64,000 nt of DNA from Perna viridis (taxonomy: Eukaryota), in assembly GCA_037379345.1 (NCBI GenBank), contig CM074515.1:8680001-8744000 (forward strand). Direction: 5' to 3'. Position numbers and translations under genes: made by a program. Of this stretch, positions 10,652 to 56,522 are shown one piece after another. The stretch's first letter is position 1, and each line of letters begins with the position of its first letter. Under the pieces are notes generated by a model. That model saw only the letters and a program-made list of their open reading frames with translations. It made no database searches and was not told the DNA's origin.

Positions 10652-13274
10652 CCATCTCTGCCTTTACTGATGATCTTGATTTCAAAGTAGTAGATTCCAC
10701 AGGAAGGAGGTATCGGGTGAGTGGCACGTACACTGGCAGCATCTTTAGCAGCTTTACCAATACCTGTGATCAATTATCAAAATGAATAAATTATCTTGTA
10801 CAGTTCATTTCATTGTGTTCTGACTGGTATTCTCTGAATATTCTTTTTCCAACATTGTGCAATTGTTTTTAGGGCAAGTTAAAATTTTGTATCAGTCACA
10901 TTTCACATTAATTACTAGAACAGAAGACTTTCTCTAAATAGAAGGTTATCTGAATTCCTTGAAGCACATTTTTTTTTACTTGAATGTAGGATGATGACCT
11001 TCTAGCACTTACAATTTACACACAGCATACACACGCCAATTTTTCATATCCAGAACATTCAATTGAAGTATTCACTTGAGGTGTTAAGGGTTATTTTCCA
11101 TTTAGTTCTAGGAACCATTTTTTGAATATCCAGAGGTTCTATGACCCTTGATTGTCCTTGAATATCATTTACAAAGAATAAAAATGGCTTTCTGACTTCA
11201 TTTTTAACCATTTACAATTCACGGTACAATAACCCCGCAAAAAGCATACCTTTATGAGCTTATCTTGATCAAAATCACACACAATACCATTTTAAAATGC
11301 AACAAGAAAGCATGATTTACGTCATTAAATTATACCTTTGCCACTGAGGACTGAATCCTAGATCACTCAGTGGCAAGCCAGGGACAAACCAATCCGGCTA
11401 TATATTTAATCCTTTAGACAAAGCATTTAACAGCTATTTTAATCTACTATCTTCTACGTTGCAGGTAGGCCATTCTGCCACATTTGCAATGGAGATATCT
11501 AAAAGTTCAGTTTTAAACCTTAAGTAAAAAGCTCAGAATGATCAGATTAGCATTTTTAAATGTTGATGCTAAAGCAGTAGGGACATGCTCATCTACAGGT
11601 ACATGAAGGAAGAAAAACAATTGAGTTAATTTCTGACACAGTATTATTTTTTTACACTAAAAGCTGAAGACCAAGAAAATCATCAATAGAAATGGCTATA
11701 TTAATACGAAATTTTTCTAAATCATTGCAGAAGAGTCAATGTAGTAATGGGGATGATTTTTGCAATTTAATACATATGGTTTTAGGAGAAAATATCTACA
11801 TAGAAGACAGTGAAAAGCTCCTTAATGATCATTAACATACATTATATACTCATTACACTCAAAGATTCCATGCAGATAAAACATAGTTAAATGGATTTCA
11901 TCTCAATACTGGTTGATACATGTACATGTAATTACATTTACTTGTTCCATTTTACAATGTTCATGCATTATTGGATTTATTACTAAAATTAAACGGTTAT
12001 TTTCCTAAGAAGAAGAGAATCATATGATAACAACTAAGCATTCTACTTCTCCTCGGGTTGATTCACCTACTAAAAGTTGTGTCACTTAGATATGAAATAT
12101 ACATTAAACGGTCTGTGTTAAACATAGAAGATTTCTGTACATTGGGGTAATAATAAATATATAATAAAGGGGAAATAAAACAACAACTGGATTGATAAAG
12201 GTTGGACTGATAGTATTTACATTACAATATGTAAATTGTAATATCAATTTTTTTTCTTGACCATGCATATGCATAAAGAAAATGGTTATTTAACAAAAAT
12301 AAAATATATAAAAAGAAAGGATTTCTGAAAATTAAAATGCCAACTAACAAAGATCCTACATGCAATTAAATTACTTGAATACACAAGCATGGCTTTATTG
12401 TATGTTTAATAAAAATGGTGTTTTCATAAGATTAAGAAAGTTACATAGTTGTTAATTTGTTGTGATCAAAAATTATAATCGAATTAACAATTGTTAAATA
12501 AACTAATTAAATGGTAATTAAACTTCTTGTAAATTAAAAAAAAAAAAACACTACAATAAAATGTAAAAAAAAATTAAGAAAAAAATATGTCAATCCAATT
12601 GTTAATTTATGATGACAACAATAATACATATGAAACCACCCAAGGCAAAGTAGTATGTAGTCAAAACAACTGTGTAGACGAAACAACCCAGATTCATCAT
12701 GTGTAGCATAATAAATGTATGACCAGAAATCAAGTTAACTTTTTTTCAATAAATTCATAAATCCAAGTTCTAATCTTGTGGAAGTTCTCATCAATAAATA
12801 AAAGTTAATACAAAAGAATAAAAGCTGTGATTTGAAAAATACCATGCAATCTTATTAACATTTGGGTGATCAGCTGATCAAACAAAAGGTTTTTCTTTGA
12901 CTTTGTTATGATATAACTTTTCTGTGAAGGACTCCAATTCTATAATCTTGGTGGCAAGAACTCTTTGATTTGATTCAAAAGAAAACATCTTGCTAGTTTC
13001 TTACTATCACCGAGGCGTCTATAACTAAATATAAACTGCGTAAAATGTTTGTTTACGTTGTTGAAATCAACAAAACATCAATACCTTTGTAGTGCACTCT
13101 GAGGTTATTTTGAGAGAGCCCGATGCATGTAAACTTGTCTTTTTGACTCCAGCATCTCGGCAATGGTGTTTCATCTTCATTCACAGCAGGATATAACAAT
13201 TTTATTCGATCTATCGAATCATGAACACTGGAAATCAGCGATTCAGTCGAACTTGACTCACTAATCGCTGCCAT
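10652..13274 (-). CDS. RANBP9: Ran-binding protein 9/10 (SPRY-domain CTLH complex subunit), 5' part only: exon 1 13274-13085, exon 2 10763-10652; the gene continues past the window start
   Basis: Exon 1 encodes MAAISE...[38 protein letters not shown] with donor GTAT. Exon 2 follows atcacag and encodes [38 protein letters not shown] with donor GTAATT. This is the SPRY N-terminus of RANBP9/RANBP10; an invertebrate gene would be co-orthologous to both. No exon 3 (YMGIGLS...) was found in 1-10650. Confidence 0.93.
11298..11482 (-). mobile_element. Solo LTR of the tRNA-containing TRIM family, in RANBP9/10 intron 1
   Basis: Minus strand starts TGTGGCAGAATGGCCTACCTGCA and ends ...CTTGTTGCA. Colinear with the LTRs at 31914-32079 and 30421-30577. 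Confidence 0.7.
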
Positions 13275-13350
13275 TTTCCTTTCTTGTAATAAATTCCCCG
13301 GATGTGTATTAGGTAAATTTTTTAAAGAGTAAATTGTTGTCTGATTGGTG
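13262..13350 (-). promoter_or_regulatory. Putative RANBP9/10 core promoter motifs
   Basis: YY1-like AAAATGGCAG overlaps the ATG (about 13268-13277). ETS-like CCGGATGT at about 13297-13304. CTGATTGG (CCAAT box on minus) at 13341-13348. Motif match only. Confidence 0.4.
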
Positions 13351-13529
13351 ATCTATTTTAAGCCTACAAATCAAATTATCCGTAAGGAATTCCGATCCAA
13401 AATAGTACTATTAGTCAGTATAAGCATGGCAAAACATTTATAGACATGAATATTAAAAACAACAAAACAAACACACTACTTGTGGTAAAAGAAAACAATT
13501 TTAGTTTTAAGTATATACTGATGCCAATT

Positions 13530-27761: not shown

Positions 27762-29325
27762 GGCGAGCCAAAGTGGACAAAAATGAGCTTTTTTTCTAAT
27801 ATTAAAAAATGATTTTTTAATATAACAAATTCATTTTTTAATATTAAAAAAATGATTTCTTATATAACAAACACTTTTTAAATGTGAAAAATTCAATTGA
27901 ATTTCTAATATTAAAAAACTTTTTTTTTTTCAAATATTAGAAATTGATTTTCTAATATTATAAAAATGGATTTGTTGTATTCTATTACAATTTTTTAATA
28001 TTAAAAAATCATTTTATAATGTAAAAAAATGTGACTGATTTTGCAATATTGCAAAATGATTTTTTAATATTAGAAATTCATTTTCTAATATAGCAAATTC
28101 AATTTGTAATATTACAAAATGTGTGATGTTTTATAATATTACTAAATCAGTAATTTGTAATATTAGAAAATGAATTTTAAATATTACAAAATGAATTTAC
28201 AATATTAAAAAAATATTTTCTGATATTAACAGATTATTTTGTTATATTAAAAAAAGTATATTTTCAAATATTACGAAAAAAGTGTTTTCTAAAATCAAAA
28301 TTATGATTTTTAATATTACAAATTCATTTTCTAATATTACAAATTTGATTTCTAATATCACAAAACCCATTTTCAATATTACAAAATGATTTTTTTAATA
28401 TTAAAAATTCAATTGAATTTCTAATATTAAAGAATTGATTTTTTAATATTAGATGTTTGTTTGTTGGGGTTTAACGCCCGAGCAGCAATATTTCAGCTAC
28501 ATTCAGGCAATGAACAAGAAAGTGATGATAACATGAACATGAAATGATGTTGATGAAATGAAAAAAGGGATGGGACACAAGGAGAATAGGGTCGATAAAT
28601 TTTGATTGCCACAAGATAAAAGGGAGGGATGGGTAGGGTCAGGCAATTTAGCATACTGTGGCGGAGCGCAAAGGTTTCTACTCCTATCAAATACCACAGC
28701 AGGGTTCTTTAACATGCGAGGAACGTGGCATCTTTCCCAACACAGTGCACCATTATGGTTTGCGGTCAGAATTTCCGTATTATAGTCTGACAACCCCAGC
28801 ATGTAACATGCCAGAGGTACCCCATTCCACCACCTGGGGCACACATCCCAGTTGCTCTGTGGGCAGAGTGCCTAGCCCCTGGCTAGGTTTCTGAGCACTA
28901 TTTAGTCGCCTTTTACGACAAGTTTAGCGCTGCAGGCCTATTCTTTTGACACCCGGACCTGCACAGGGCTTTTAACATTAGAAATTGATTTTTCTAATAT
29001 TAGAAGATGGTTTTGTTGTATTCAATTACAATTTTTTAATATTTGAAAATCAATTTGTAATATTAAAATATGTGACTGATTTTGCAATATTGCAAAGTGA
29101 TTTTATAATATTACAAATTTATTTTCTTACATTACAAATACATTTTCTAATATTACAAATTCAATTTGTAGTGTTATAAAATGTGTGATATTTTATGATA
29201 ATTTGTAATATTAGAAAATGAATTTCTAATATTAGAAAAATATTTTCTAAAAAGATGTTTCTGTAAAATTGAAAATTTGTTTTCTAATATTACAAAATAT
29301 TCATTTTTGTCCACTTTGGCTTGCC
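27762..29325. mobile_element. Foldback/MITE-like DNA element filled with an AATATT-based satellite and interrupted by a retroposon
   Basis: 25-bp TIRs GGCGAGCCAAAGTGGACAAAAATGA (27762-27786) and TCATTTTTGTCCACTTTGGCTTGCC (29301-29325), 1 mismatch. The interior consists of degenerate monomers of about 20 bp (TTTCTAATATTAG/CAAA). Confidence 0.8.
28454..28969 (-). mobile_element. Apparently full-length SINE-like retroposon (structured non-tRNA head, Nin/Deu-like body motif, (AAAC)n tail)
   Basis: Flanked by TTTTAATATTAGA (28441-28453) and TTTTAACATTAGA (28970-28982). Minus-strand 3' end is GCTGAAATATTGCTGCTCGGGCGTTAAACCCCAACAAACAAAC. Body contains GCATGTTAAAGAACCC. A 5'-truncated sister copy lies at 60191-60249. 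Confidence 0.75.
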
Positions 29326-29828
29326 TTGTACAACTGTTCTTCATTAAAATATATATTCATTTGAAAATAGTGTGTTCACAAGCACAAACAATATAACTAA
29401 ATAAAAAATAGAGCAAAAACAGATGATCAGTACCTAGGAAGCCTAAGCATTATTGTCAGGTAAAAATCATGCATATAGCCTTGCATATATATTATGTTCA
29501 TAACAGGTATGTGAGCATGTATATGTATAATTACACATCAATTTATATACCTGTAAAACAATATGACAAGTACAGAATTAGTAAAGAACCACGACAAGGC
29601 AAGCAGAGAATTTATGCAGTAAGAAAATGCATTTTGTCAAACTTACAGGTGCGATTTTCTAGAATTTAGATTTATTGCCGGCATTAGAGACGACTTAGAC
29701 TTGGGATGAAATGACTAAACCCCACGCTATTACAAAATTTCTAATGTGTTCCACTCCCTGGTATAATACAACCCCAAAAATCGAAATTTCAGTTTTCAGT
29801 TTTTTTCTCTTGGTTGTTAGATAACAGA

Positions 29829-32800
29829 ATGACAACAATCCCCTTTGCGATATGTATAATAGGAGGGATTGTCATTCGTCTTGCCTTATTTAGGACATCC
29901 CTCCCAGAATGGATTTCTCTGCAAACCGAGATTGTTACACCTTTAACTTCCTGGGAACGAGGTTTGTTTTTTTCGAAATTGTGTAGGTCTTCCTGTTTTG
30001 ATGATCATTTTCCAGAAATACTTTAATTCACGTTTTTTTTAAGACAGGGTTAATGAAAAATTGCAAGATGAATACTCTTACAATGTAAGAGGTTGGAATT
30101 CCATTCCTCCATACCCCAATATCTTATTTCTGAGTGTCATATTGCATACCGCTAGTTCCGACATTCTTTGATATTGGCATAATAATAGTCAAATATTTAC
30201 CATTGAACACACTTTATACAGTTTCTTCACCCTAGGCCTAACACGGGAGAAGGTGACTAAGCTGAGGAAAAACAAATGACCTACCTGTTCAGAAAATCCA
30301 GCAATCCTGGAAATCTGTTGTAAAAACAGTTTAAATGAACTTCATATTTGGTTTTTAGCATTTTGAATGGGTACATCTGGTTGATAAAATTACAGATTTT
30401 AATTTGAGAAATAAAGATTTTGTTATGGGAGAGCATGGTTTGACTCACAAAATAATACTACACCACCGAGGGTCGAACCCTAGAGCGCCAGCGACAAACC
30501 GCTAAAGAATTAATCTTTCAGCCAAGTCAATTCACTGGCTAATTACACTACTGCCTGCTACAATGCAGGTAGGCCATTGTCGTATAATATAAGTTCCGAC
30601 CCCTTAGCGGTTCTGGTGGGAACTTGTATTCAATAATAGAGGTCCTGCTTCACTATAATTCGTTTCCCCCCGTATAAGTCAGGTTCCACCCCAAGAAAGG
30701 TTCCGTCACCTCCCCCCCCCATATACGAGAAGTTTGAAAAATGGCAAGGCTTGTTTAAAATTAGTTGTAAAATAATTGATGAATGCATAAAATGAGCAAC
30801 TTTTTAATTTTATTTTTGAATATGAAAATACCAGAGTCTAGCATGTTGGGCCTTATACTTATGCCAAATCATTTTAAAAAATCTATCATTTCAATGCAAA
30901 TTAACAGGTAAAAGGGCCAAAATAAAAAAAATAAGATATTCCTTGAAATTTTCCTAAAATTAGCATACCCTCCCCTTTTCACACAAAAATATAAATAAAC
31001 ACCAACAAATCCGCAGGGGGTGAGGTGGGTAGTAAAACTGTTGTTCTGATTCACATACGTAAAACATGTATAGAAAGGTTAAGTGTTAATGTTTTAGTTG
31101 TGTCTTTTGATGGAAATCGTGTCTTTTGATGGAAATCTGGTTAAAGAAACAAATGTTTCCTTTTTAAAATTAATCACTCATCATAATGATATTATTTATT
31201 TCCATTCATTTTTGTGAGAAAATCTAGAATAGACATGGTAGAGATGCCAAAACTATCAGAAAGAAAAATCAAGGAGGTTAGGTTTGATCTTGATCTTAAA
31301 CAAGGAATACTTTATTTGCAAGAGTTTTACAGACAGTGGCTTGAATTATTGAGTTATATTAGTGATATTGGAACAGGTACTGACTGAATGCAGGTGCTCT
31401 GATATTTTTTTCATGTTGTATATTAATTGATCATATAGTTTTCAAAGATATATCTATATCACTCAATGAATAGGGACACTCTTTAAAATGAATTATATAA
31501 TAAGAATTTTGACACTACTCTCGCTTAACTATTGTAAACATATCTTAAGACTGACCACTTTTTTTCACACAAAAAATTTAAATACATTTGTTATTACATT
31601 TATAACCTTTACTTTTATATCTGCTTTCCAAATAATCCAAGACATTTGGCAAAAATAGTAATTGTAAGGTAAAATGTAAGCATACATAGTTATCGATTAT
31701 TTTGTTTCTACCAGAACCAGAATTATAGGCAGAAGTAGGAATCTGTATTATATAATACAGGTTCCTATTGGTACTGCTATCAGAGCGGAACTTATATTAT
31801 ACGACACCATTCTGCCACATTCCCCCCCACCTTAAGAGTCTTCGTACTAAAGGGACTCTAACACTAGCTCATTAGCTATCCAAAACCCGTGGGCATTTTA
31901 GTTGGGCGCCAAATGTAACGGGAGATCATGATTTGATACCAAGGATTTTACTCTAGACTGCTCAGTGACAAGCCAGGGACAAACCAATTAGTTTAAAGAA
32001 TTAGTCCTTTAGCAAAGTCAATTAACTGGCTATTTAAATCTCACTACCTACAACAATGCAGGTAGGCCATCCTGCCTTAATATTAAATTAACAAACAAAT
32101 TGCCATCACCAACTTTAAGTTGATTTGGTCAAAAATATATTGTGTTCTGTAAAATTAGTGACCTAATTCAAAATGGCTAGTCACTTTGATAACTTTCTTC
32201 ATTACAAATGTTTTCTAGGTATTTAACAAAAATTTAGGATTTTTTCACTTGATATCCAGTGGGTTAAACTTCTTTTATGTAAATAAAAGACTTAAAATAT
32301 TTTAAAACACATGTTTAGCTTATTCACATTTGCTGTGTCTTTCAACAAGTCAGATACTAGAGGTTTGGATGGCACAGAGGCAGAAAATAGCTTGCCAGAC
32401 AACTTGCTGGAGTATAATATGAATCGATATTCATTGTCACTATCATGTCATGTAATCTTTTTCTGCACTTGTTTCATATAAAAAATATCATCCCCTTCCC
32501 TGCCCTTGTAAAGAAAAGGTATGGGATAATATTTTTGATATGAAACAAGTGCATATGATTCAGTTTTCCATAAAACTAAGGTGTAGTGAAGTGAAACTGT
32601 TAATTCCATCAGTTCACTTTGTTAGAACATCAAAAGTAACTTCACAATATTCTTATTTTAAAATCTCCCACCTATACAATATTTAAAAGAGGTTATCATG
32701 GGCATTGTATATGCCAATTTAGATATCTACTTATAATATAATATGTAATATAATATATCTCTTTTATATTAGTTATAATATAGATAAAAGTGCCAGTTCT

Positions 32801-35800
32801 CCATTCACACTTCACACAATAATTAAAAAATGCTTTAATACAAATTTTTAAGTAACATTGGTGAATTGTTTGTATTTTTTGGTAAAAAAATCTTTCAGAT
32901 ACCAAATATAATTTTGCAAAAATGAAATGTATAACTTAAAAATAAAAATCAGTTCTACTGACCGATAGTACTAGAAACACATAATTTTTTCTGTGCCTTA
33001 TTCCAAATGTGCCATTGAAGGATTTTAATTTTAAATAACCATTAATATTTTTTTTACATTTTAGTTAGAGGTAATTTTTTTATGATGCAGGAATATACAT
33101 GGCTAATTTACTCATTATTTCAAACTTTTTTTTCAGTTATACAGATTAAGTATAATGAAAAGAAATAACTTGAAAAACGTGTCAGATGTATGTTATTGTA
33201 CTTAAATAACTCTGTTTTAGCCATGGAAGGACTTGCCTTGAAAGAGAATATGGTGTCACCTTATGCAGGAGATTTGTTTCATGAGGTAATTCGACATAAT
33301 CATTTCAGTTTTTCCAAATTGTCAATATTTTTCTTCACTTGATATTTGATTAAATTGCATTGATCTTATTATGAGAAATAAACAAAGTTTCAAATGTAAA
33401 TTTCATGCATGGTAGATTGTACAATATACATGTATGCTCAGATAACAACCATTGCAACATTTATTTCTATTTTTAACTCTAACTTTCTTGTATACATATC
33501 TGTTAATCAGACTGGTTTGTGTTTCAGACACCCTTGACAATGAGACTTTTAGGTTTCTTGTCAAAGTTTTCGGACAATACAGTGTTACTGATATTTGTGG
33601 TAAGTTTGTATTGTTTCATACAAATAAACTTCACCTGTACCCACCATCTGGTTTAGGTTACTGAAAGATGTACAGGGTATTGGTTGTATATCTTGGTATC
33701 TGTAAAAAGATCTGCATGCCCACTGTTTTTAATAATTTTGTTCCAGAATAAAAAGAAATGATCCAATTGGTCAAGCCATGCCTAGAAATCAAGTGGTTGA
33801 CAGGGGTGGATTCAGGATTTCAGATAAGGGAGGGTGCATAGTTAAAATTTTGCTGAGTGGAGCGAGGTGAAAAATTTTTTGAGGTTAATTTTTTTAAATA
33901 TTCTTCTAGAGTGGGTGCAATGTAGATATCTTTTGTGGTAAAATTAGCGAAAAATTAAAGTTTCAACTTAAAACCGCCTAAATCTACCCCTGAAACCCAT
34001 GCTGTGCAAATTTTAAAGGGGCGCATACCTGCCACGTCTCCGCCTATTCCACCCCTGGTTGAACTCACAACCCAGAGTTCCTCAAAGGTCTTGTTTTATC
34101 TTAGTCATTAGTTGCAATTTTCTTGCTGCCAATTAACATGCTTTAGGTAAAAGGTATAGAAGGACAAGGAGTGGCTGCCAATTAAAATTGTTTTGGTGAA
34201 AGGTATAATAGGATCCTTGAAGAAATGATATAGAAGCATGTAGTAAGTATAAGGGGTTGTGTTTCTGTCTTTTTTAAGGGAGAAAGGTCAATATATTGAA
34301 TATTTTGGCAAAATGATTTTGTTACTTGCTGTATAAATTGGCTTAAAAATCTTTGATCTTGTTGTATAGTTTAATCTCTAAAGAAACTTATTATTTTTTC
34401 ATGAACTAGTAAATTATCCAAGTGATTAAGTAAAGGCATTGAAGATTTTGTTGTTTTTGTTACTGTAGAAAAGAATGAACATGATGGAAACTAAAATGTA
34501 TAATTTCTGTTTCTGTAGGGTCTTGATGCACTGTGTCTAATGTTACTGATGAAGATAGCTCATTTACACGGTGGTTACCTTGTACGTACATAATATAAGG
34601 AAGATGAAGATAATTCATGTACATAGTAGATACCTCATAAATATACAATATATGGAATGTCAGTATAACCAAAAATTTCTGCAGAAAGACATTTTTGTCA
34701 TTTAAGGCAAATGCAGACATTTTTTATTGTCTGTAGACAAGTGACATCCACTAACAGGACATTAGATTGCAGATTTGTTTTTGAATGAATGCAAAATAAT
34801 GCAAAGTAAACAGATTATACTGTATAGAAAAGGAAAGAATATTGGGGCCTAATCTAGAGGGAGAAATCAGCAGAAACTTCTCCTTGTTAGTACTCACTTT
34901 TACCATTTGTCTTTGATAGGGAGAAATTTTTGTGATAGATTACAGACAAAAATGTCAATATAGTCTTTTTCAAACAGAATTTACTAAAACTTTTCTTTGT
35001 TATCGATGTCTAAATTAGGCCCTGAAAATAATTATGCTTGGTATTTTTGTCAACTATCATGAGTAGAGAGCTTTACTATTGTGTATTAAATTAGCAATCT
35101 TTCTAAGAATCAGACAGGAGGTGATTCATGAATGTCAGAAACCAACAAAATTCACTTTTATTTCTAATTCAGATACAGATACAGACCACATAACAAGTCT
35201 TAGTTTGTCATTCATTGTTGCACTTTTGGATATAATGATGTAGATTGTGTATAAAAATTATCATTTTGCAAGAGTTATCATTCTTGACTTGGTTTGATTT
35301 TGTTGAATATAGTTGGAGATGAATGTATGGTTTTCTATAAAATGCAGGTTTGAATACAGAAAGGACTATTGTTGCATGGATATAAAGCATATGTTTATTA
35401 ATGAATCACATCTACAATAGGCAGTGTCTTAATTTTGTATGGTATGGACTGGTACTTAAATACATGTACAATACATGATAATAACTATGTTGTATGTTTG
35501 GTACTTTCTTTAAGAAAAAAAATATTACATGTGTACATACATTATGAAATTGGGAAAATTTGACTTGATATGCATGTGAAAATGAAATATTTTATGATGT
35601 ATTTACAGTTAAAAAAGCAGGCAAATGAAGTAAAGAAATATGCAACTGACAGCTATAAACTTATCATCAAGTCAGAGGAATTAAGATTAATTGAGTTTTA
35701 CATCATTTTAGCGTAAGTATGTGAACTCATGTTATTATAACAGAATATAGACTACATTCAAAATAGCTTTATACCAGTTTTTTGTTTTATTTAAGTGGAA

Positions 35801-49470: not shown

Positions 49471-52400
49471 TCATACAATTTCATATTTGTCAGTATAAAA
49501 CATAACCTCTGATGAATACTTGGCAGGCTGTTCGCCATCTAATAATCGTACATCAGAAAGCTGAAAAATAAATATACAGATCATAAAAGGCTTATCCTGT
49601 AAGTTCAATGCCAAACAAAAGTAAGTAAATTACATTCCACACACAATGCCAAGAGGTATTGATTGTATTCTAGGTGCTGTTTAATGTTACACACAATGCT
49701 ACGAGGTATTGATTGTATTCTAGATGTCCTTTAATGTTACACACAATGCTACGAGGTATTGATTGTATTCTAGGTGCTGTTTAATGTTACACACAATGCA
49801 ACAATGTATTGATTGTATTCTAGATGCTGATTAATGTTACACACAATGCTGTAAGGTAATGTTAAGTTTTACTTCTGCTGAAGCTAACTAGGTGTCAAAC
49901 ATGTAATATTCAATGTTGTAGCTATTTTCAGACATGTTTATTCAGCTTTAAGACAAAATGTAGTTTTAGTTGTAGTTTGGGAAACTATTGAGTTGTAAAA
50001 TCTTGATCTTTGAGCCCAATTACAATGGGTTTTATGCAGCAATTCGTAAAGTGTTATGAACAGTAAAAAATTGTAGAATCTAAGCAGAAACTGTTGGGGT
50101 AAACAAGCCTGAATTTTAAGTACAGAGATTGGTTAATGAATCTTGGATACTACAAAAGTACTTCAATTTGTGGGCTTCAATTTTTGTAGCAAGTCATAAT
50201 TGCACTAGTTAATACAGTTTTTATATTCACTGTTTTGATTGTGCATCAGAGATTTCAGTATTTCATATTTCTTTGGGAGGTTTGATACATTTACCATGAC
50301 TACTGGCACCCCCAATAAAAAATAAACACAAACAATCCATGAATTTTTAAAATGTTCATTGTAAAGAATTGTTCCTTTGGAAAGCAGGTGAATATCTTGT
50401 CTTAATACATGTAATTGTTTCCTATATTATACCATCAATAATTCCTAGATAGGGAGTTTAGCATTGGACGTAGCTTAGTGGTTAACTTATTCCTACCTGT
50501 AAATCACAATAAGACTTTTTGGACATAAAATTGACATTAACAGGGAAGAAATCATCAGGATGTCCTGCTATACTAAACTCCAGACTACCAGACTTGTTAG
50601 ATGCATCTATAACAGGTAAACTCCAAACCAACACTGACTTTCTACTATCGTAATTATATTCTCCGTCACAATCCCCTACAACTGGTGCTCCCACATTTGA
50701 TCTGTTAATGTAAGATAATACATGTGTATCTTCATTTTTCTCTGTAGTAAAGGAGATATAGTAAATATAGTTCAATAGCAGTCTTTAAAAATGTCAGACA
50801 GAAGGTAATATATGCATGTCATTCACCTACAAAATTCACTTTTACTGATCATTCAGAGATAGAGACCACATGACCAATCCTAGTCATAAAGTTTTATTAT
50901 TTAGATAAAAATTATAGATTGTGTGTGAAATTGTGTACAGGTTATTGTCTTTGATTTGGTTGATTTAAGACAGAGATGAAAATATGGTTTTCTTAAAACA
51001 GATCTGTATACAGGAAGACTATAGTCACATACAGATATGGTGAATGTAGAATGAAAAAAGCAGTTTGTATTTCAGCACCTTACCACTACCATTGACAGTG
51101 TTTGAATTTTATATGGATTGATATTTAATATCTGATTTTCTTTCAGCTATACACAGATTTTTTTCTAGTTAATAGTTTTTACATACACTTTGTTGATTTC
51201 ACATAAAATTTTTAATGCTGTTTAATTTATTGACCTAAATGAAAGCAAAACATATCAGTGATCAGTTTTTGGTTGCATAATTTCACCTTATGGAGGTAAA
51301 CTTTCCACCGAAATTTTTTTGCTGGACTTACGGTAAAGGAATATTGATTATCACATCATTCAATTCTAAGTGTGGTTGTTCTAATCCATATTCAATGTTC
51401 ACATCACAGCCACTACCAGTCTCATTGGGCCAGCAATTTACTGCAATAAGAGTTGTTTTTTTTAATAAAATTCCTTAATAATATGCAAATATCCTTCAAC
51501 TATTCGTCAGAGAATAAAAGTACAAAATCACTAGAGTTATACATGAAAACATTGAAGGAAATACCTTTCCCTTGTTAAAGTACTGTTATCCTGTTAAAGA
51601 GCCAGTAATTAGTATTTCACTGGTATTCACCTTTAACTTTTGATAAAGTGCACTAACAATCAAACTGAATTATAGAAAAAAAACATTGTTAATTATTACA
51701 TGCATTTTGACATACACATGCACAAATACTTTCCATATATATTTTTTCATTTTTTGTTCAATTACACAAAGAAATATGTGACTTTTACTTACATATTTAA
51801 TCAATTTTTTGATAGTCTGTACCAGTGAATAATTTGACTCACTTGATAATGGCATATTAGATTCATCCTGTGTAGTATATCTCCATTTCAAAACACCAAC
51901 ATCCTGGTGGAGTGGGAACGGTTTCTCAGGATTTTTAAGCTGTATGCATGATGATGAATTGAACATTTTTTTATCAACATTTGGATGTGTCTGGAAAAAT
52001 ACAAAGAAAAACCAATCAGTTGCATCAAGCAGACATGCTTTATTTTCTACAATACCAACAGAAGTAAATCAGACTGCAATTCAATGACCAGCTATAAAGA
52101 TCATTACTGTTATTCACCATGTGTTTTTTTTTCAGTATTTTCACATTTATCTTTTAATAGCATTTATAGTAGATTGTCTCATTTTTACAACATTAGTTTA
52201 ATCTACACTATTCAAAAATTCATTAAACGTTCTTTTTTACAAGCAAACCGTAAGAAAAATGCAAATGTGTTTAGTTTAAAGCCAGGAGTTAGCTTTATAA
52301 AGAACATAAGTTACTATTAATAGATAAGGAGAGAAAGGCACAGGCAAGTTTTCATGCAAATACTTTTGAAATGAAATGCTTTCGATACTAATTAAATTTT

Positions 52401-55400
52401 GTTGAGTTTGAGATTACAACCCTACCTGTAACTGAGTTCCTTTTTTATCATTATTGATCATCTGTACTTTAATACGACCATATTGTTCATCATTGACCTT
52501 GACCTTGACCATACCATGTATTTCCATACTCTGTAAGCCACCATCACGACCAGCTGTTAAATTAATCTTTTCTTCCATTACAACATGAACACTGAAGTAG
52601 AAATAACATGTGTAATATTAACATAATCAGTTAACATGATCAATACTAAGTTTAAACAAATACCGCTTACTTAAAAATGAAGTCATTTAACATTATTAAC
52701 ATCAACTAAAGTATTTTTTTGTATAACAACAACTACCAGGAAGTGGTTAATGAAATGTAAATGTCCAGTTCTTAACTGACTATGAAAACATGAAGCCTTT
52801 ATTTCTCTCAAAATAATATAAAAACAACAGAAAAGGAGTTAGATGGCAGAATTTTTTTTGTAGTTGACTTCTTAATTAAGAACTGAGATGAAGGTGAGAT
52901 TATAGGATGAAGACATACATGTTATGCATAAAACTGATCTTCAAGGCATGACATATAATCATTTAAAATCTTGGAGTTAAATGGCTCAGCCAAAACCCCT
53001 AGTAAGTCAATAGGATCATAGACCAGTGATTACTAACCCTTCCTGATCTACAGCTGGTGTTGAAGCTTTAGCTACTGTGGAGGAGACTGAAGTATTTGTA
53101 CTAATGACTTCTGCAATCAAAACATATATACATATACAACTGGCACTTTATCATGTTTCATTTTTTATTTACCTAATTTTTAAGATTTTGAAAGCTAACA
53201 TATTTGAAAAGATTCAAAGGCATACAGTTAATCATTAAGATAGTAAATCATTTCAACGAGAGAATTTAACAATTTTTACAAAATCACTGAATTCAAATAA
53301 AAGCGTATTTAAAACAAAATTGTATTATTTAAAATATATTTTTCAACATAATAAGTGACGTAATGCAAAGTTACAAAATGTGTTTCTTGATGTTTGAAAT
53401 CACCAGGAAAACATAAATGGAGATAATTACATATTAAAAAAATATACAAATGTGTTTCCCTTATCATATAACATACTTTGTCCTTCAGATTCTAACTGTC
53501 CTACGAAGGTATCTACATCTTTCTTCTTACTGCCTAATTTAAGGGCTTTTCCTGATGATGATGGTTTGCTAAAATTGTTAAGATACATTTATAAGCTTGT
53601 AAAGTAAATACATGTGTATTGCTTGCTTTTCAAAACAAAATTGAGCTTGAGATGAAATACACAAGACTAATCATATTATCTTCATGAAAATGGTGCTGTG
53701 CTGAAATTCGCTTGTTTATTTGAATACAGGGTAACAACAAAAAAATGATTTAATTCCTGTACTTGGTTGAAATAAAAGTCAACTATTAGAAAAAAAACAC
53801 TTGAATATGTTATGTCTGTGTGTCAATACCTGGGTACAGATGAGTATGAAGGTTTAGTTTCCATGGACGAAGGCGTTGGTTCAACAATACCATGAGATGA
53901 AGAAGAAGAAGAATATGAAGAACTTCCAAAACCACCACCAAAACCAATACCCTTCCCTGTCCTGCCAGCCTCACGCCTCTCTTGTTGTAATTCTTTGGCT
54001 CTTTTCTTCATTGCTTCTTTAGCCTCTCTTTCTTGTGTCTGTAACAAAAGAAATCTTTTATTTTCATCTCAGTTAAATAAACAATGGCGACGGTATCAAA
54101 AAATGTCCCTAATTAAAACATTGTCATGCTTTCAATGTCACAAAAGATCTTTGAAATATTTTCTGTTCTATCAAATCTTTCAGTATACAATGTAAAAGGT
54201 TTTGACGAGATCAGAGATGCATACTTGACAAACTTTATAGTTTACATTATAGTTTAAGTGTGGTTTTTTGAAGGTGTCTTAAATTTGATTACCTTCACGG
54301 TAGACATCAAGATGAAAAAATAACCAACAACAACAAAAAATATTCAATTTTTATCCACCAAAGTTTATACCTGTATCATCACTATTATAGATTATTTATA
54401 GATTTTTCCTTTATAATTTTCAAAAGACAGTTACCTCTCTAACTGATATTGCTACTTTCTCTTCATGAGAGTCCATTTCTGTAAAAGTTCTTATCTGCGC
54501 CAAATTAACACTCTCTCTGTATCCTAAAGCAACAATTTCATCAAATGCAAATATCAAAGAGAATGCCTGATCCCCGATCTCGGCTTCCTCCATGTTTCTA
54601 CAATATTCAGGTATCTACAACAAAAACATCAAAACATATGCATGATTTTTTTTTCAAACAGCAGCATTTTTAAAGAAGCAAAGTCTTCCATATGACATTT
54701 AAAACTCAATTAATTCTAAGTAGCCTTGAACCCCCTATTTCAGTTGGTTTTAATAATTTATAATTTTTATAATTGTTAATATTTAAAGTTTTATCTAGCC
54801 ATATATATCACTTACCAATATTTGACAATTTTTTATAATCACTACAATCATATTAGTGTAAACTTATTTTCATGAGTGATTTACTTTGCTAATTAAAAAA
54901 AAAAATGAGAAAATTAAATCTACCTATAATAGAATACATCTTGAGAGGTTGTTAGACATGAAAATACATAGCCATGCAATCAGATTGACGTTTCCAAATC
55001 TTGAAAATACATTTCAGAAAAAATATCTTGGTTTACGGTATACTTATCAAATTTAAAAGTATTGACATACATTCTATTTTCCTGAATAGTAATACTAATA
55101 AGTAGCTTTGAAGGTTTATAATTTCTTCTTACCACACGAGCAAAAAGTCGTAGAGTTTCCAGATCTTCCAGTATATTGCTGGCCTTTGTTGTTATTAACA
55201 AAACATAAAGCTTTTCTAAAGGTTGGTAAACATATCTAACACTTTCTGTTTCTACAAATGTGTGTTGTTTTCCTGAACTCATTAACTTAGGGAAGGCTGC
55301 AAGGAGACCTTCTATTCTGGATCTGGTCATTTCAACAAACTGTCGGGATATCAGGGCTACAAAATACAAAAAAATAATTCTCATTTTTTACATACACTTT

Positions 55401-55767
55401 TGTATATTTCTTTTCTTAAAAAAACATTTATTTATAAATGAAAAGATAAGCACTCATATTTTAAAAACCAGATATCCAAAAATATAAATTCCACTCATTA
55501 CATCACAGTTAATCTTTATTAGTAAACAGTCATTTAATATTGCATGATTTTAACATATGAATTTGAAATGAAATAAACATGTAATAAAATGAGAAATGGA
55601 TTTTTCTCTCTACAACCAGTTTTGAGAACACTATGGCTGCTGACAAAGTAGATTTTTTTTGTATGTGAATAATAACATATTCTATTCTTTGGAGTCATCA
55701 AAATTTTATTTAAATAGGCATACAAACCTTTCCCCGACTTGTTGCAGACTGCTGCAGCAAGCAGCAC
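49471..55767 (-). CDS. ARCN1: Coatomer subunit delta (archain 1); 11 coding exons found, ATG-only first exon not located
   Basis: Exons (minus): 55767-55728, 55356-55133, 54614-54435, 54038-53830, 53568-53477, 53110-53038, 52591-52426, 51990-51843, 51440-51332, 50701-50497, 49560-49471. All GT-AG; 1536 nt plus a missing ATG gives about 512 aa. Motifs: [111 protein letters not shown]. Confidence 0.95.
49639..49856. repeat. 50-bp minisatellite, about 4.3 copies, in the last ARCN1 intron
   Basis: ACACACAATGCTACGAGGTATTGATTGTATTCTAGGTGCTGTTTAATGTT at 49639, 49689, 49739, 49789 and partially at 49839. Confidence 0.9.
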
Positions 55768-56522
55768 CTGTGAAAAGATAACCAAATATAAACTGAAAAT
55801 CTTGATTTGTTTTCAATTGTATCATTTGTTACTTCCTGTCTGAAAGCTTTTTGTATGTCACTTCCGATTTTCAAATTGTCAAATGTGTTTTGAATTAAAT
55901 CTAGTAGAAAGATAAAACGATATATTGATTAGCCAGTGCATACATTTTGAGCTTCACAGAGCTAATAACTGGATGGGTAAGGGAGGAAATCATGGAAAGC
56001 GCTGCACTTTACAGCGCTATCAAGATTGGTACTGTGCTATCTTGCTACCAGCGCTGTGCCATAAACTTAAATTTAAGGATTAAAAATCAATTACGACAGA
56101 AAACGTGTGTGCCCCAATGTCATTTACGGCATCCTACAAAGTAATTAGCAGTAAACACACTATGGTCAGTTGATCACCGTGTGACCGCACATGTGTCTGA
56201 CACCAATAAAAGTTGACATTGCCAACAAGATTCTTTAACAGTCACCCCACCTGGCCACAAATTAATTTTAATGAAGGTGTCAATCAGATATTAATATCTG
56301 ATTCATATCCAATATCTGATATGAACCAATCAAAACTGACTATGGTAAAAATTCACTCAACCATGGCTAAAAATACTTGGTTATTTATAAATGCAAAGTT
56401 CAATAATTGCACAATCACATGATGTTTTCAACATTACGAAGCTGATTTACCTTATAAAAGAACATATTAAATTCCCAAACAATATTTATTCCATCAGATA
56501 CTTCCAAAACACTTTGAAAAGA

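What the first reader, a model, noticed from the sequence alone, without database searches (positions are those of the whole stretch)
30421..32079. Miniature LTR retrotransposon (TRIM) with tRNA-like LTRs hidden in PIGU intron 1
Seen on the minus strand: LTR (166 bp), TT, TGGCGCCCAAC, a 94-bp non-coding interior with a small hairpin, a polypurine tract, then an LTR starting TGTGGCAG. The structure only becomes visible once a 1.2-kb insertion is removed from the 3' LTR. Established: TGGCGCCCAAC is the start of the tRNA-Lys(CTT) primer-binding site, and LTR-PBS-tiny interior-PPT-LTR defines a TRIM. The LTR middles carry tRNA-like sequence: GTCCCTGGCTTGTCAC (resembling a tRNA-Asp anticodon arm) in the 5' LTR, and a B-box-like GGGTTCGACCCT in the 3' LTR. 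Inference: a Pol III-driven TRIM analogous to plant Cassandra (5S rRNA in the LTR). From memory it may belong to the molluscan tRNA-LTR 'Ajax' group, or it could be an uncatalogued family. The LTRs are diverged and no TSD is visible, so this copy is old.
Basis: partly seen in the sequence, partly recalled or inferred. Interest (0 to 1): 0.75.

Follow-up and report, generated by a model that had tools for sequence, protein, structure and literature searches.

The report
Decayed Helenus mini-retrotransposon in PIGU intron
This is an old, broken copy of a multi-copy, non-coding mini-retrotransposon whose end repeats carry tRNA-type promoter boxes, likely copied by borrowed Gypsy enzymes; it lies in a spliced-out PIGU intron and is an ordinary new family of the Helenus group described in 2024.

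Summary
On the minus strand, 32079-30421 is LTR (166 bp), 94-bp interior with a tRNA-Lys primer site and polypurine tract, and a second LTR split by a 1,229-bp insertion. It is one decayed copy (LTRs 22% apart) of a genome-wide TRIM family: 186-bp LTRs, at least 61 exact LTR-PBS junctions, exact 4-bp target duplications in 29 of 45 other elements, tandem arrays. The LTRs hold box A and box B at tRNA spacing, but the cloverleaf is gone (no Rfam or ARAGORN hit). The name given was wrong: in Kojima 2024 tRNA-LTR TRIMs are Helenus, and Ajax has 5S rRNA. The family closely resembles the published mussel Helenus-1 families (compared by eye). The tRNA part fits Thr better than Asp. A decayed 4-bp duplication (ATAT/ATTT) is in fact recoverable, because the copy sits inside a high-copy MITE-like repeat. 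The insertion is a non-autonomous Ginger1-type DNA transposon. Pol III transcription and the Gypsy helper are inferred, not shown. Verdict: real, new member of a known kind, low interest.

The parts
31914..32079 (-). 5' LTR, 166 bp (family 186 bp); box A decayed (31995-31984), box B decayed (about 31954-31943)
   Evidence: nearest family LTR 12% away, median 15%
31901..31911 (-). Primer-binding site, 11 of 11 bases complementary to the 3' end of host tRNA-Lys (CTT, and one TTT-anticodon variant of the same body); 12th base mismatched as in published mussel Helenus
   Evidence: Fig. S2C of PMC10886601
31820..31913 (-). Non-coding interior, 94 bp, with a 6-bp hairpin stem at 31859-31854 / 31840-31835 (11 bp in the better-kept copy L006)
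31820..31833 (-). Polypurine tract abutting the 3' LTR
31807..31819 (-). First 13 bases of the 3' LTR, ending in the first copy of the insertion's target duplication (ATGG)
30578..31806 (.). Nested non-autonomous DNA transposon of Ginger1 type, 1,229 bp, 21-bp perfect inverted ends (70 of 93 columns over about 90 bp), no ORF of 100 aa
30421..30577 (-). Rest of the 3' LTR; box A broken by a deletion near 30500, box B kept (30479-30470), T-run at about 30452-30449
32080..32083 (+). Target-site duplication, copy beside the 5' LTR (ATAT)
30417..30420 (+). Target-site duplication, copy beside the 3' LTR (ATTT, 3 of 4)
30073..32414 (.). High-copy MITE-like repeat (about 0.68 kb when empty; ends TACTCY...GGAGTA) into which the TRIM inserted; its halves are 30073-30420 and 32080-32414
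29962..33220 (+). First coding intron of PIGU, holding all three nested elements; the TRIM is antisense to the gene
11298..11482 (-). Solo LTR of the same family, more decayed (20% from the nearest of 51 LTRs), box A kept, no target duplication

Best explanation
It is a decayed copy of a non-coding Helenus-type TRIM family whose LTRs carry tRNA-type A and B boxes that likely served as an internal RNA polymerase III promoter, and whose RNA was likely reverse-transcribed from a tRNA-Lys primer and integrated by enzymes borrowed from a Gypsy retrotransposon. Shown: the LTR-PBS-interior-PPT-LTR build, the copy number, the 4-bp duplications, the boxes at tRNA spacing, loss of the cloverleaf, the nesting order (MITE-like repeat, then TRIM, then Ginger1-type transposon) and the splicing-out of the intron. 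Inferred: Pol III would start just before box A in the 5' LTR, would have to read through the four-T run that follows the tRNA-like part there, and would stop at the same run in the 3' LTR, giving an RNA of about 360 nt with an 80-nt terminal repeat for strand transfer; a Gypsy RT/RNase H/integrase would act in trans. This copy is likely dead: neither LTR keeps both boxes, the 5' end has lost TG, and the 3' LTR is interrupted.
For: Family: 75 matches from 40 scored of 647 candidates; 61 exact LTR-PBS junctions, control 0; interiors mostly 93-96 bp; exact 4-bp duplications in 13 of 21 and 16 of 24 elements with both ends, exact 5-bp in none; 100 of 108 LTRs start TG and 99 end CA. Boxes: A in 50, B in 57, both in 26 of 108 LTRs, 43 bases apart in 23 of the 26; 3 and 2 of 900 flank windows. 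Collinear, sense-only likeness to host tRNAs, z 5.75 for Thr-CGT. Four-T run in 89 of 108 LTRs, 5-6 T in 6 more. By-eye match to Helenus-1B_MoPh LTR start (33 of 37 bases, against the L003 5' LTR) and to Helenus-1_MyCo interior (first 26 bases identical, last 29 bases 25 of 29, against family interiors). Lys-primed Gypsy elements with TG..CA ends and 4-bp duplications exist in the genome.
Against: No tRNA hit by ARAGORN on the window or by Rfam on the window copy or two better copies, so the tRNA origin rests on boxes, spacing and weak alignment. Only 26 of 108 LTRs keep both boxes. No sequence is shared with the 12 Lys-primed elements fetched beyond PBS and a few terminal bases. Those Gypsy copies are young (LTRs 94-99.7% alike) whereas the closest TRIM LTR pair among 39 differs by 3.8%. 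No transcript of the family was shown. The comparison with published consensus sequences was by eye, not computed.
Confidence: 0.9

Rival explanations
1. An ordinary Pol II-driven TRIM: the tRNA-like stretch is a relic of an old SINE or tRNA insertion and no longer the promoter; the RNA came from an LTR Pol II promoter or from host read-through.
For: Cloverleaf lost (acceptor 43% paired, anticodon 58%, T arm 75%); no Rfam tRNA hit; a four-T run in the 5' LTR would cut many Pol III transcripts short; Kojima states that Pol III use by Helenus is not experimentally validated.
Against: Both boxes are kept at tRNA spacing while the stems around them have drifted from the mussel relatives, the pattern expected if the boxes are what mattered. 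This rival still leaves the element a Helenus by Kojima's sequence definition.
Confidence: 0.15
2. A member of Ajax.
For: TRIM build with a small-RNA-derived LTR middle; similar size (Ajax 421-434 bp, this family 466 bp).
Against: Ajax has 5S rRNA boxes A-IE-C, 5-bp duplications, a tRNA-Leu primer and is known from two nemerteans; here tRNA-type A/B boxes, 4-bp duplications (29 of 45, 5-bp in 0), Lys primer, no 5S hit in Rfam.
Confidence: 0.01
3. Two neighbouring tRNA-SINE insertions or a chance tandem duplication that mimic an LTR element.
For: The two LTRs of the window copy are 22% apart, no closer to each other than to other family LTRs (12-15%).
Against: The same LTR-94 bp-LTR unit recurs at dozens of places with TG..CA ends, PBS, PPT and 4-bp duplications; the empty site in the surrounding repeat shows a single insertion with a 4-bp duplication.
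Confidence: 0.01

Closest known systems
Helenus, mussel (Mytilidae) Lys-primed families: Helenus-1/1B_MoPh, Helenus-1_LimFor, Helenus-1_MyCo, Helenus-1/3_MyGa (Kojima 2024, PMC10886601; main text parts 1-4 of 6 and supplement parts 1, 6, 10, 11 of 11 read)
   Same: LTR 176-188 bp vs 186; interior 92-125 vs 94; 4-bp duplication; PBS TTTGGCGCCCAACT; box A TRGCY..YGG and box B GGTTC; LTR start, LTR end, interior start, pre-PPT hairpin and PPT all alike by eye.
   Different: Not identical to a listed consensus: three family motifs have no hit in the supplement. The T-arm pairing seen in those consensus sequences is weakened here and a 9-bp stem encloses box B instead (91% paired in 108 LTRs).
Ajax (Kojima 2024)
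   Same: TRIM with a small-RNA-derived promoter-like LTR middle.
   Different: 5S rRNA-derived, 5-bp duplication, tRNA-Leu primer, nemerteans only.
Cassandra (plant TRIM; as described in Kojima 2024, original work not read)
   Same: Pol III promoter sequence inside the LTR of a non-coding LTR element; tandem arrays.
   Different: 5S rRNA instead of tRNA; plants; transcription shown for Cassandra, not for Helenus.
biv-TRIM (Satovic et al. 2019, PMC6934838; passages read)
   Same: Bivalve TRIM with solo repeats, tandem arrays and an interior hairpin.
   Different: No canonical PBS and a conserved interior 14-mer that the window interior lacks; no tRNA-derived terminal repeat reported in the passages seen.
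Ginger1 DNA transposons (Bao et al. 2010, PMC2836005; passages read), for the nested insertion
   Same: TGTNR ends, inverted repeats of 40-270 bp, 4-bp CCGG or CCGT/ACGG duplications.
   Different: Non-coding 1.2-kb derivative; no transposase seen in the eight regions fetched; its own duplication reads ATGG, the CpG-decayed form of ACGG.

Membership tests
TRIM | Two direct terminal repeats with TG...CA ends | tested here: met
   100 of 108 LTRs start TG, 99 end CA; window 5' LTR has lost TG
TRIM | Under 1 kb, non-coding interior | tested here: met
   186+94+186 = 466 bp
TRIM | PBS after the 5' LTR and PPT before the 3' LTR | tested here: met
   11-nt match to host tRNA-Lys 3' end; G-rich tract in the copies printed
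Helenus (animal) | tRNA-like LTR sequence with TRGCY..YGG (box A) and GGTTC (box B) | tested here: met
   A 50, B 57, both 26 of 108 LTRs, tRNA spacing in 23 of 26; control 3 and 2 of 900; z 4-5.75 against four of ten host tRNAs. Decayed in the window copy.
Helenus (animal) | 4-bp target-site duplication | tested here: met
   29 of 45 elements exact, 8 more at 3 of 4, 5-bp in 0; window copy 3 of 4 by empty-site comparison
Helenus (animal) | PBS for a tRNA 3' end shared with Gypsy elements | tested here: met
   13 non-family matches to LTR-end + Lys PBS; 8 of 12 fetched carry RT-motif ORFs; PR-RT-RH-IN order in L206
Helenus (animal) | Sequence likeness to catalogued Helenus consensus sequences | tested here: met
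   By eye only against DataS1 part 6; Repbase and Dfam could not be searched
Helenus / TRIMp3 | Transcription by RNA polymerase III | not testable with these tools
   Not validated for any Helenus according to Kojima 2024
Ajax | 5S rRNA-derived boxes A-IE-C in the LTR | tested here: not met
   No 5S rRNA hit at E<=10; tRNA-type boxes instead
Ajax | 5-bp duplication and tRNA-Leu primer | tested here: not met
   5-bp exact in 0 of 45; Lys primer
Functional tRNA gene | Cloverleaf recognised by covariance model or ARAGORN | tested here: not met
   tRNAscan-SE not available
Ginger1 (nested insertion) | TGTNR ends and 40-270 bp inverted repeats | tested here: met
   TGTCG ends, 21 bp perfect, about 90 bp imperfect
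Ginger1 (nested insertion) | CCGG or CCGT/ACGG 4-bp duplication | tested here: met
   9 of 11 ends read at 9 other places are flanked by CCGG or CCGT, one by CTGG, one by GCAG; the LTR site reads ACGG in 63 of 108 LTRs
Ginger1 (nested insertion) | Gypsy-integrase-like transposase in an autonomous copy | tested here: inconclusive
   None recognised among the longest ORFs of eight fetched regions; no genome-wide protein search made

The most novel reading that the evidence does not exclude
This family is a Helenus lineage in which the tRNA fold has been fully rebuilt: the cloverleaf is gone and a new 9-10 bp hairpin encloses box B while both promoter boxes keep tRNA spacing, and its helper was a Lys-primed Gypsy lineage in the same genome that shares its first eight bases, its last five to six bases and its PPT junction. 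That would be the first animal Helenus-helper pair tied by terminal sequence and a clean natural case of promoter-only retention with a new RNA signal for packaging or strand transfer.
Probability: 0.15. Interest if true: 0.45.

Novelty: new member of a known kind. Interest (0 to 1): 0.2.

Why it matters
Modestly. It adds one family to a 2024 catalogue that already lists 51 bivalve Helenus families, and it is a tidy teaching case of triple nesting in which each layer dates and delimits the next. The open question for the whole group, whether Pol III really drives these LTR elements and reads through its own terminator, is not brought closer by this old family; younger families elsewhere suit it better. 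No effect on PIGU is seen.

Tried and rejected
ARAGORN on the window: 0 genes. Rfam at E<=10 on window 29500-33000, L006 1450-2010 and L003 1570-1670: no tRNA or 5S match. tRNA-Asp origin: GTC register pairs 23% against 58% for TGT, alignment z 3.97 against 5.75 for Thr-CGT; only ten host tRNA types were compared and a Thr-TGT gene was not retrieved, so the isotype is not assigned. A loose A/B-box pattern search mostly returned one tRNA-Lys array. Separate subfamily for the solo LTR: best other match 79%, so none found among 40 scored. Helper by shared interior sequence: none in 12 Lys-primed elements; the eight shared start bases with L210 are weak evidence because four unrelated bivalve Helenus also start so. 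Autonomous Ginger copy: none recognised. Expression: no RNA holder listed on record; in one raw RNA run only 30 reads lay on 29700-33400, depth 0-0.4 over the element, too thin to judge and possibly from other copies; family-wide expression remains untested. Pfam on the PIGU exon-1 ORF alone gave nothing. No earlier notes on this genome. Dropped before counts: the window's own locus and four loci that duplicated an array; elements lacking an end (4 of 25 and 21 of 45) are outside the duplication counts.

Full report
Observation. On the minus strand the 5' LTR runs 32079-31914 (166 bp), followed by TT, the primer site at 31911-31901, an interior of 94 bp in all, a polypurine tract and a second LTR that begins at 31819 and is broken after 13 bases by an insertion at 31806-30578; it resumes at 30577 and ends at 30421. 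The LTRs match at 114 of 147 aligned positions (score 122; 300 shuffles reach at most 31), and the solo LTR at 11482-11298 is of the same family. The element lies antisense in the first coding intron of PIGU, 29962-33220: exon 1 and exon 2 translate to PIGU-like sequence (the likeness of these two exons is my recall of the human protein), the Pfam PIG-U model matches downstream exons, and RNA reads and one RNA-type contig join exon 1 to exon 2.

It is a family. A genome search with the 5' LTR and interior gave 75 matches from 40 scored of 647 candidates; an exact pattern across the LTR end and primer site occurs 61 times, its control never. Better-kept copies have 186-bp LTRs and a 93-96 bp interior, 466 bp in all, and some form tandem arrays of three to six LTRs. 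Among other elements with both ends, 13 of 21 and 16 of 24 have an exact 4-bp target duplication, four more in each set match at 3 of 4, and none has a 5-bp one. Of 108 near-full LTRs 100 start with TG and 99 end with CA. LTR pairs differ by 3.8-16.7% (median 9.2%, n=20) and 4.8-21.7% (median 10.3%, n=19), so the family looks old in this sample, and the window copy (22%) is among the most decayed. The first sample was chosen by likeness to the window copy and the second by an exact junction, so this is not a full census.

The tRNA-like part. Box A (TRGCY....YGG) is in 50 and box B in 57 of the 108 LTRs, both in 26, 43 bases apart in 23 of these, against 3 and 2 of 900 flank windows; CpG columns decay much faster than others (79% against 95% commonest base), which explains much of the loss. 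LTR positions 83-148 align collinearly and in sense only with host tRNAs: Thr-CGT z 5.75, Lys-TTT 4.8, Thr-AGT 4.4, Asp-GTC 4.0, six others 2.1 or less (ten types only). The cloverleaf is not kept: acceptor stem 43% paired, D 72% (mostly G-U), anticodon 58% in the TGT register and 23% in the GTC register, T arm 75%, while a different 9-bp stem around box B is 91% paired. ARAGORN and Rfam find no tRNA. A run of four T follows in 89 of 108 LTRs. In the window copy the 5' LTR has lost both boxes and the 3' LTR keeps only box B. The primer site matches 11 bases of host tRNA-Lys.

Nesting. The flanks on both sides are halves of one high-copy repeat of about 0.68 kb with short inverted ends (825 candidates). 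In 18 of 19 other copies fetched the two halves are contiguous, and the junction reads ATAT in 11 of 19; in the window the junction word stands twice, as ATAT at 32080-32083 and ATTT at 30417-30420. The 1,229-bp insertion has 21-bp perfect inverted ends and no long ORF, has relatives elsewhere, and 9 of 11 ends read at other places are flanked by CCGG or CCGT, the signature of Ginger1 transposons (PMC2836005, passages). The LTR site it entered reads ACGG in 63 of 108 LTRs, a Ginger1 target; the ATGG seen here is its CpG-decayed form (inference). The order is therefore MITE-like repeat, TRIM, Ginger1-type element.

Mechanism. Shown are the anatomy, the duplications and the boxes. Inferred from LTR-retrotransposon and Pol III biology: transcription from the internal boxes of the 5' LTR, read-through of its T-run, a stop at the T-run of the 3' LTR, priming by tRNA-Lys, second-strand priming at the PPT and integration by a Gypsy integrase. 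The genome holds Lys-primed LTR elements: 13 of 17 matches to an LTR-end/primer pattern lie outside the family; of 12 fetched, 8 carry RT-motif ORFs, L206 has protease-RT-RNase H-integrase in Gypsy order, and L210 and L215 have 4-bp duplications. L210 starts with the same eight bases and has a similar PPT junction, but nothing else is shared, such starts are common among bivalve Helenus, and these Gypsy copies are far younger than the TRIM copies, so no helper is established.

Comparison with what is known. Kojima 2024 (PMC10886601; main text parts 1-4 of 6, supplement parts 1, 6, 10, 11 of 11 and a motif search of the whole supplement) names TRIMs with tRNA-derived LTRs Helenus and those with 5S rRNA Ajax. 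Animal Helenus make 4-bp duplications and share primer sites with Gypsy; 51 bivalve families are listed. By eye this family is closest to the mussel families: 33 of the first 37 LTR bases match Helenus-1B_MoPh, and the first 26 and 25 of the last 29 interior bases match Helenus-1_MyCo. It is not one of the listed consensus sequences (three family motifs absent). That the host is a mussel is an inference from this likeness alone. Two literature searches listed no later paper devoted to Helenus, each leaving one hit unlisted; Repbase and Dfam could not be searched, so the family may be catalogued there. biv-TRIM (PMC6934838, passages) is a different element without a canonical primer site.

Verdict. 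Real and well read by the first stage, but misnamed and ordinary: a new family of a described group, represented here by a dead intronic copy with no sign of an effect on PIGU. Interest 0.2.

Noticed in passing
window 30073-30420 and 32080-32414: High-copy (825 candidates) MITE-like repeat of about 0.68 kb with short imperfect inverted ends TACTCC...GGAGTA; class not assigned.
   Followed up: partly
window 30578-31806: Non-autonomous Ginger1-type family with CCGG/CCGT targets; other copies often carry LINE-like insertions (L142, L150); no autonomous copy seen.
   Followed up: partly
L010 (G000:C2:3828730-3830221), L002 (G000:C9:44734798-44735764), L008: Tandem arrays of the TRIM with 6, 4 and 3 LTRs, bounded by a single 4-bp duplication where both ends could be read.
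   Followed up: partly
family LTR positions about 48-89 (window 32030-31990, minus): Two short hairpins just upstream of box A; similar inverted repeats appear by eye in many bivalve Helenus LTRs and could be a conserved signal.
   Followed up: no
L205-L215 (G000 C1, C5, C8, C9, C14): Several young Lys-primed Gypsy elements (LTR pairs 94-99.7% alike) with PNMA-like gag; observed only.
   Followed up: partly
window 32463-32552: Long AT-rich hairpin in the same intron that scores weakly on several miRNA models (below gathering); probably a small inverted-repeat element.
   Followed up: no
window 27771-29300: AT-rich 21-bp tandem repeat in both orientations upstream of PIGU.
   Followed up: no
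window 13053-13352 (-) and 50482-55812 (-): Exons resembling RANBP9/10 (recalled, no Pfam hit; the solo LTR lies downstream of this exon in sense) and coatomer delta (Pfam Adap_comp_sub hit).
   Followed up: no
G000:C6:28992243-29010160, C8:20315829-20356301, C9:4452594-4533374, C10:41641346-41676103: Long, near-identical tandem arrays of tRNA genes (Lys/Met, Thr/Gly, Lys/His, Asp/Arg).
   Followed up: no
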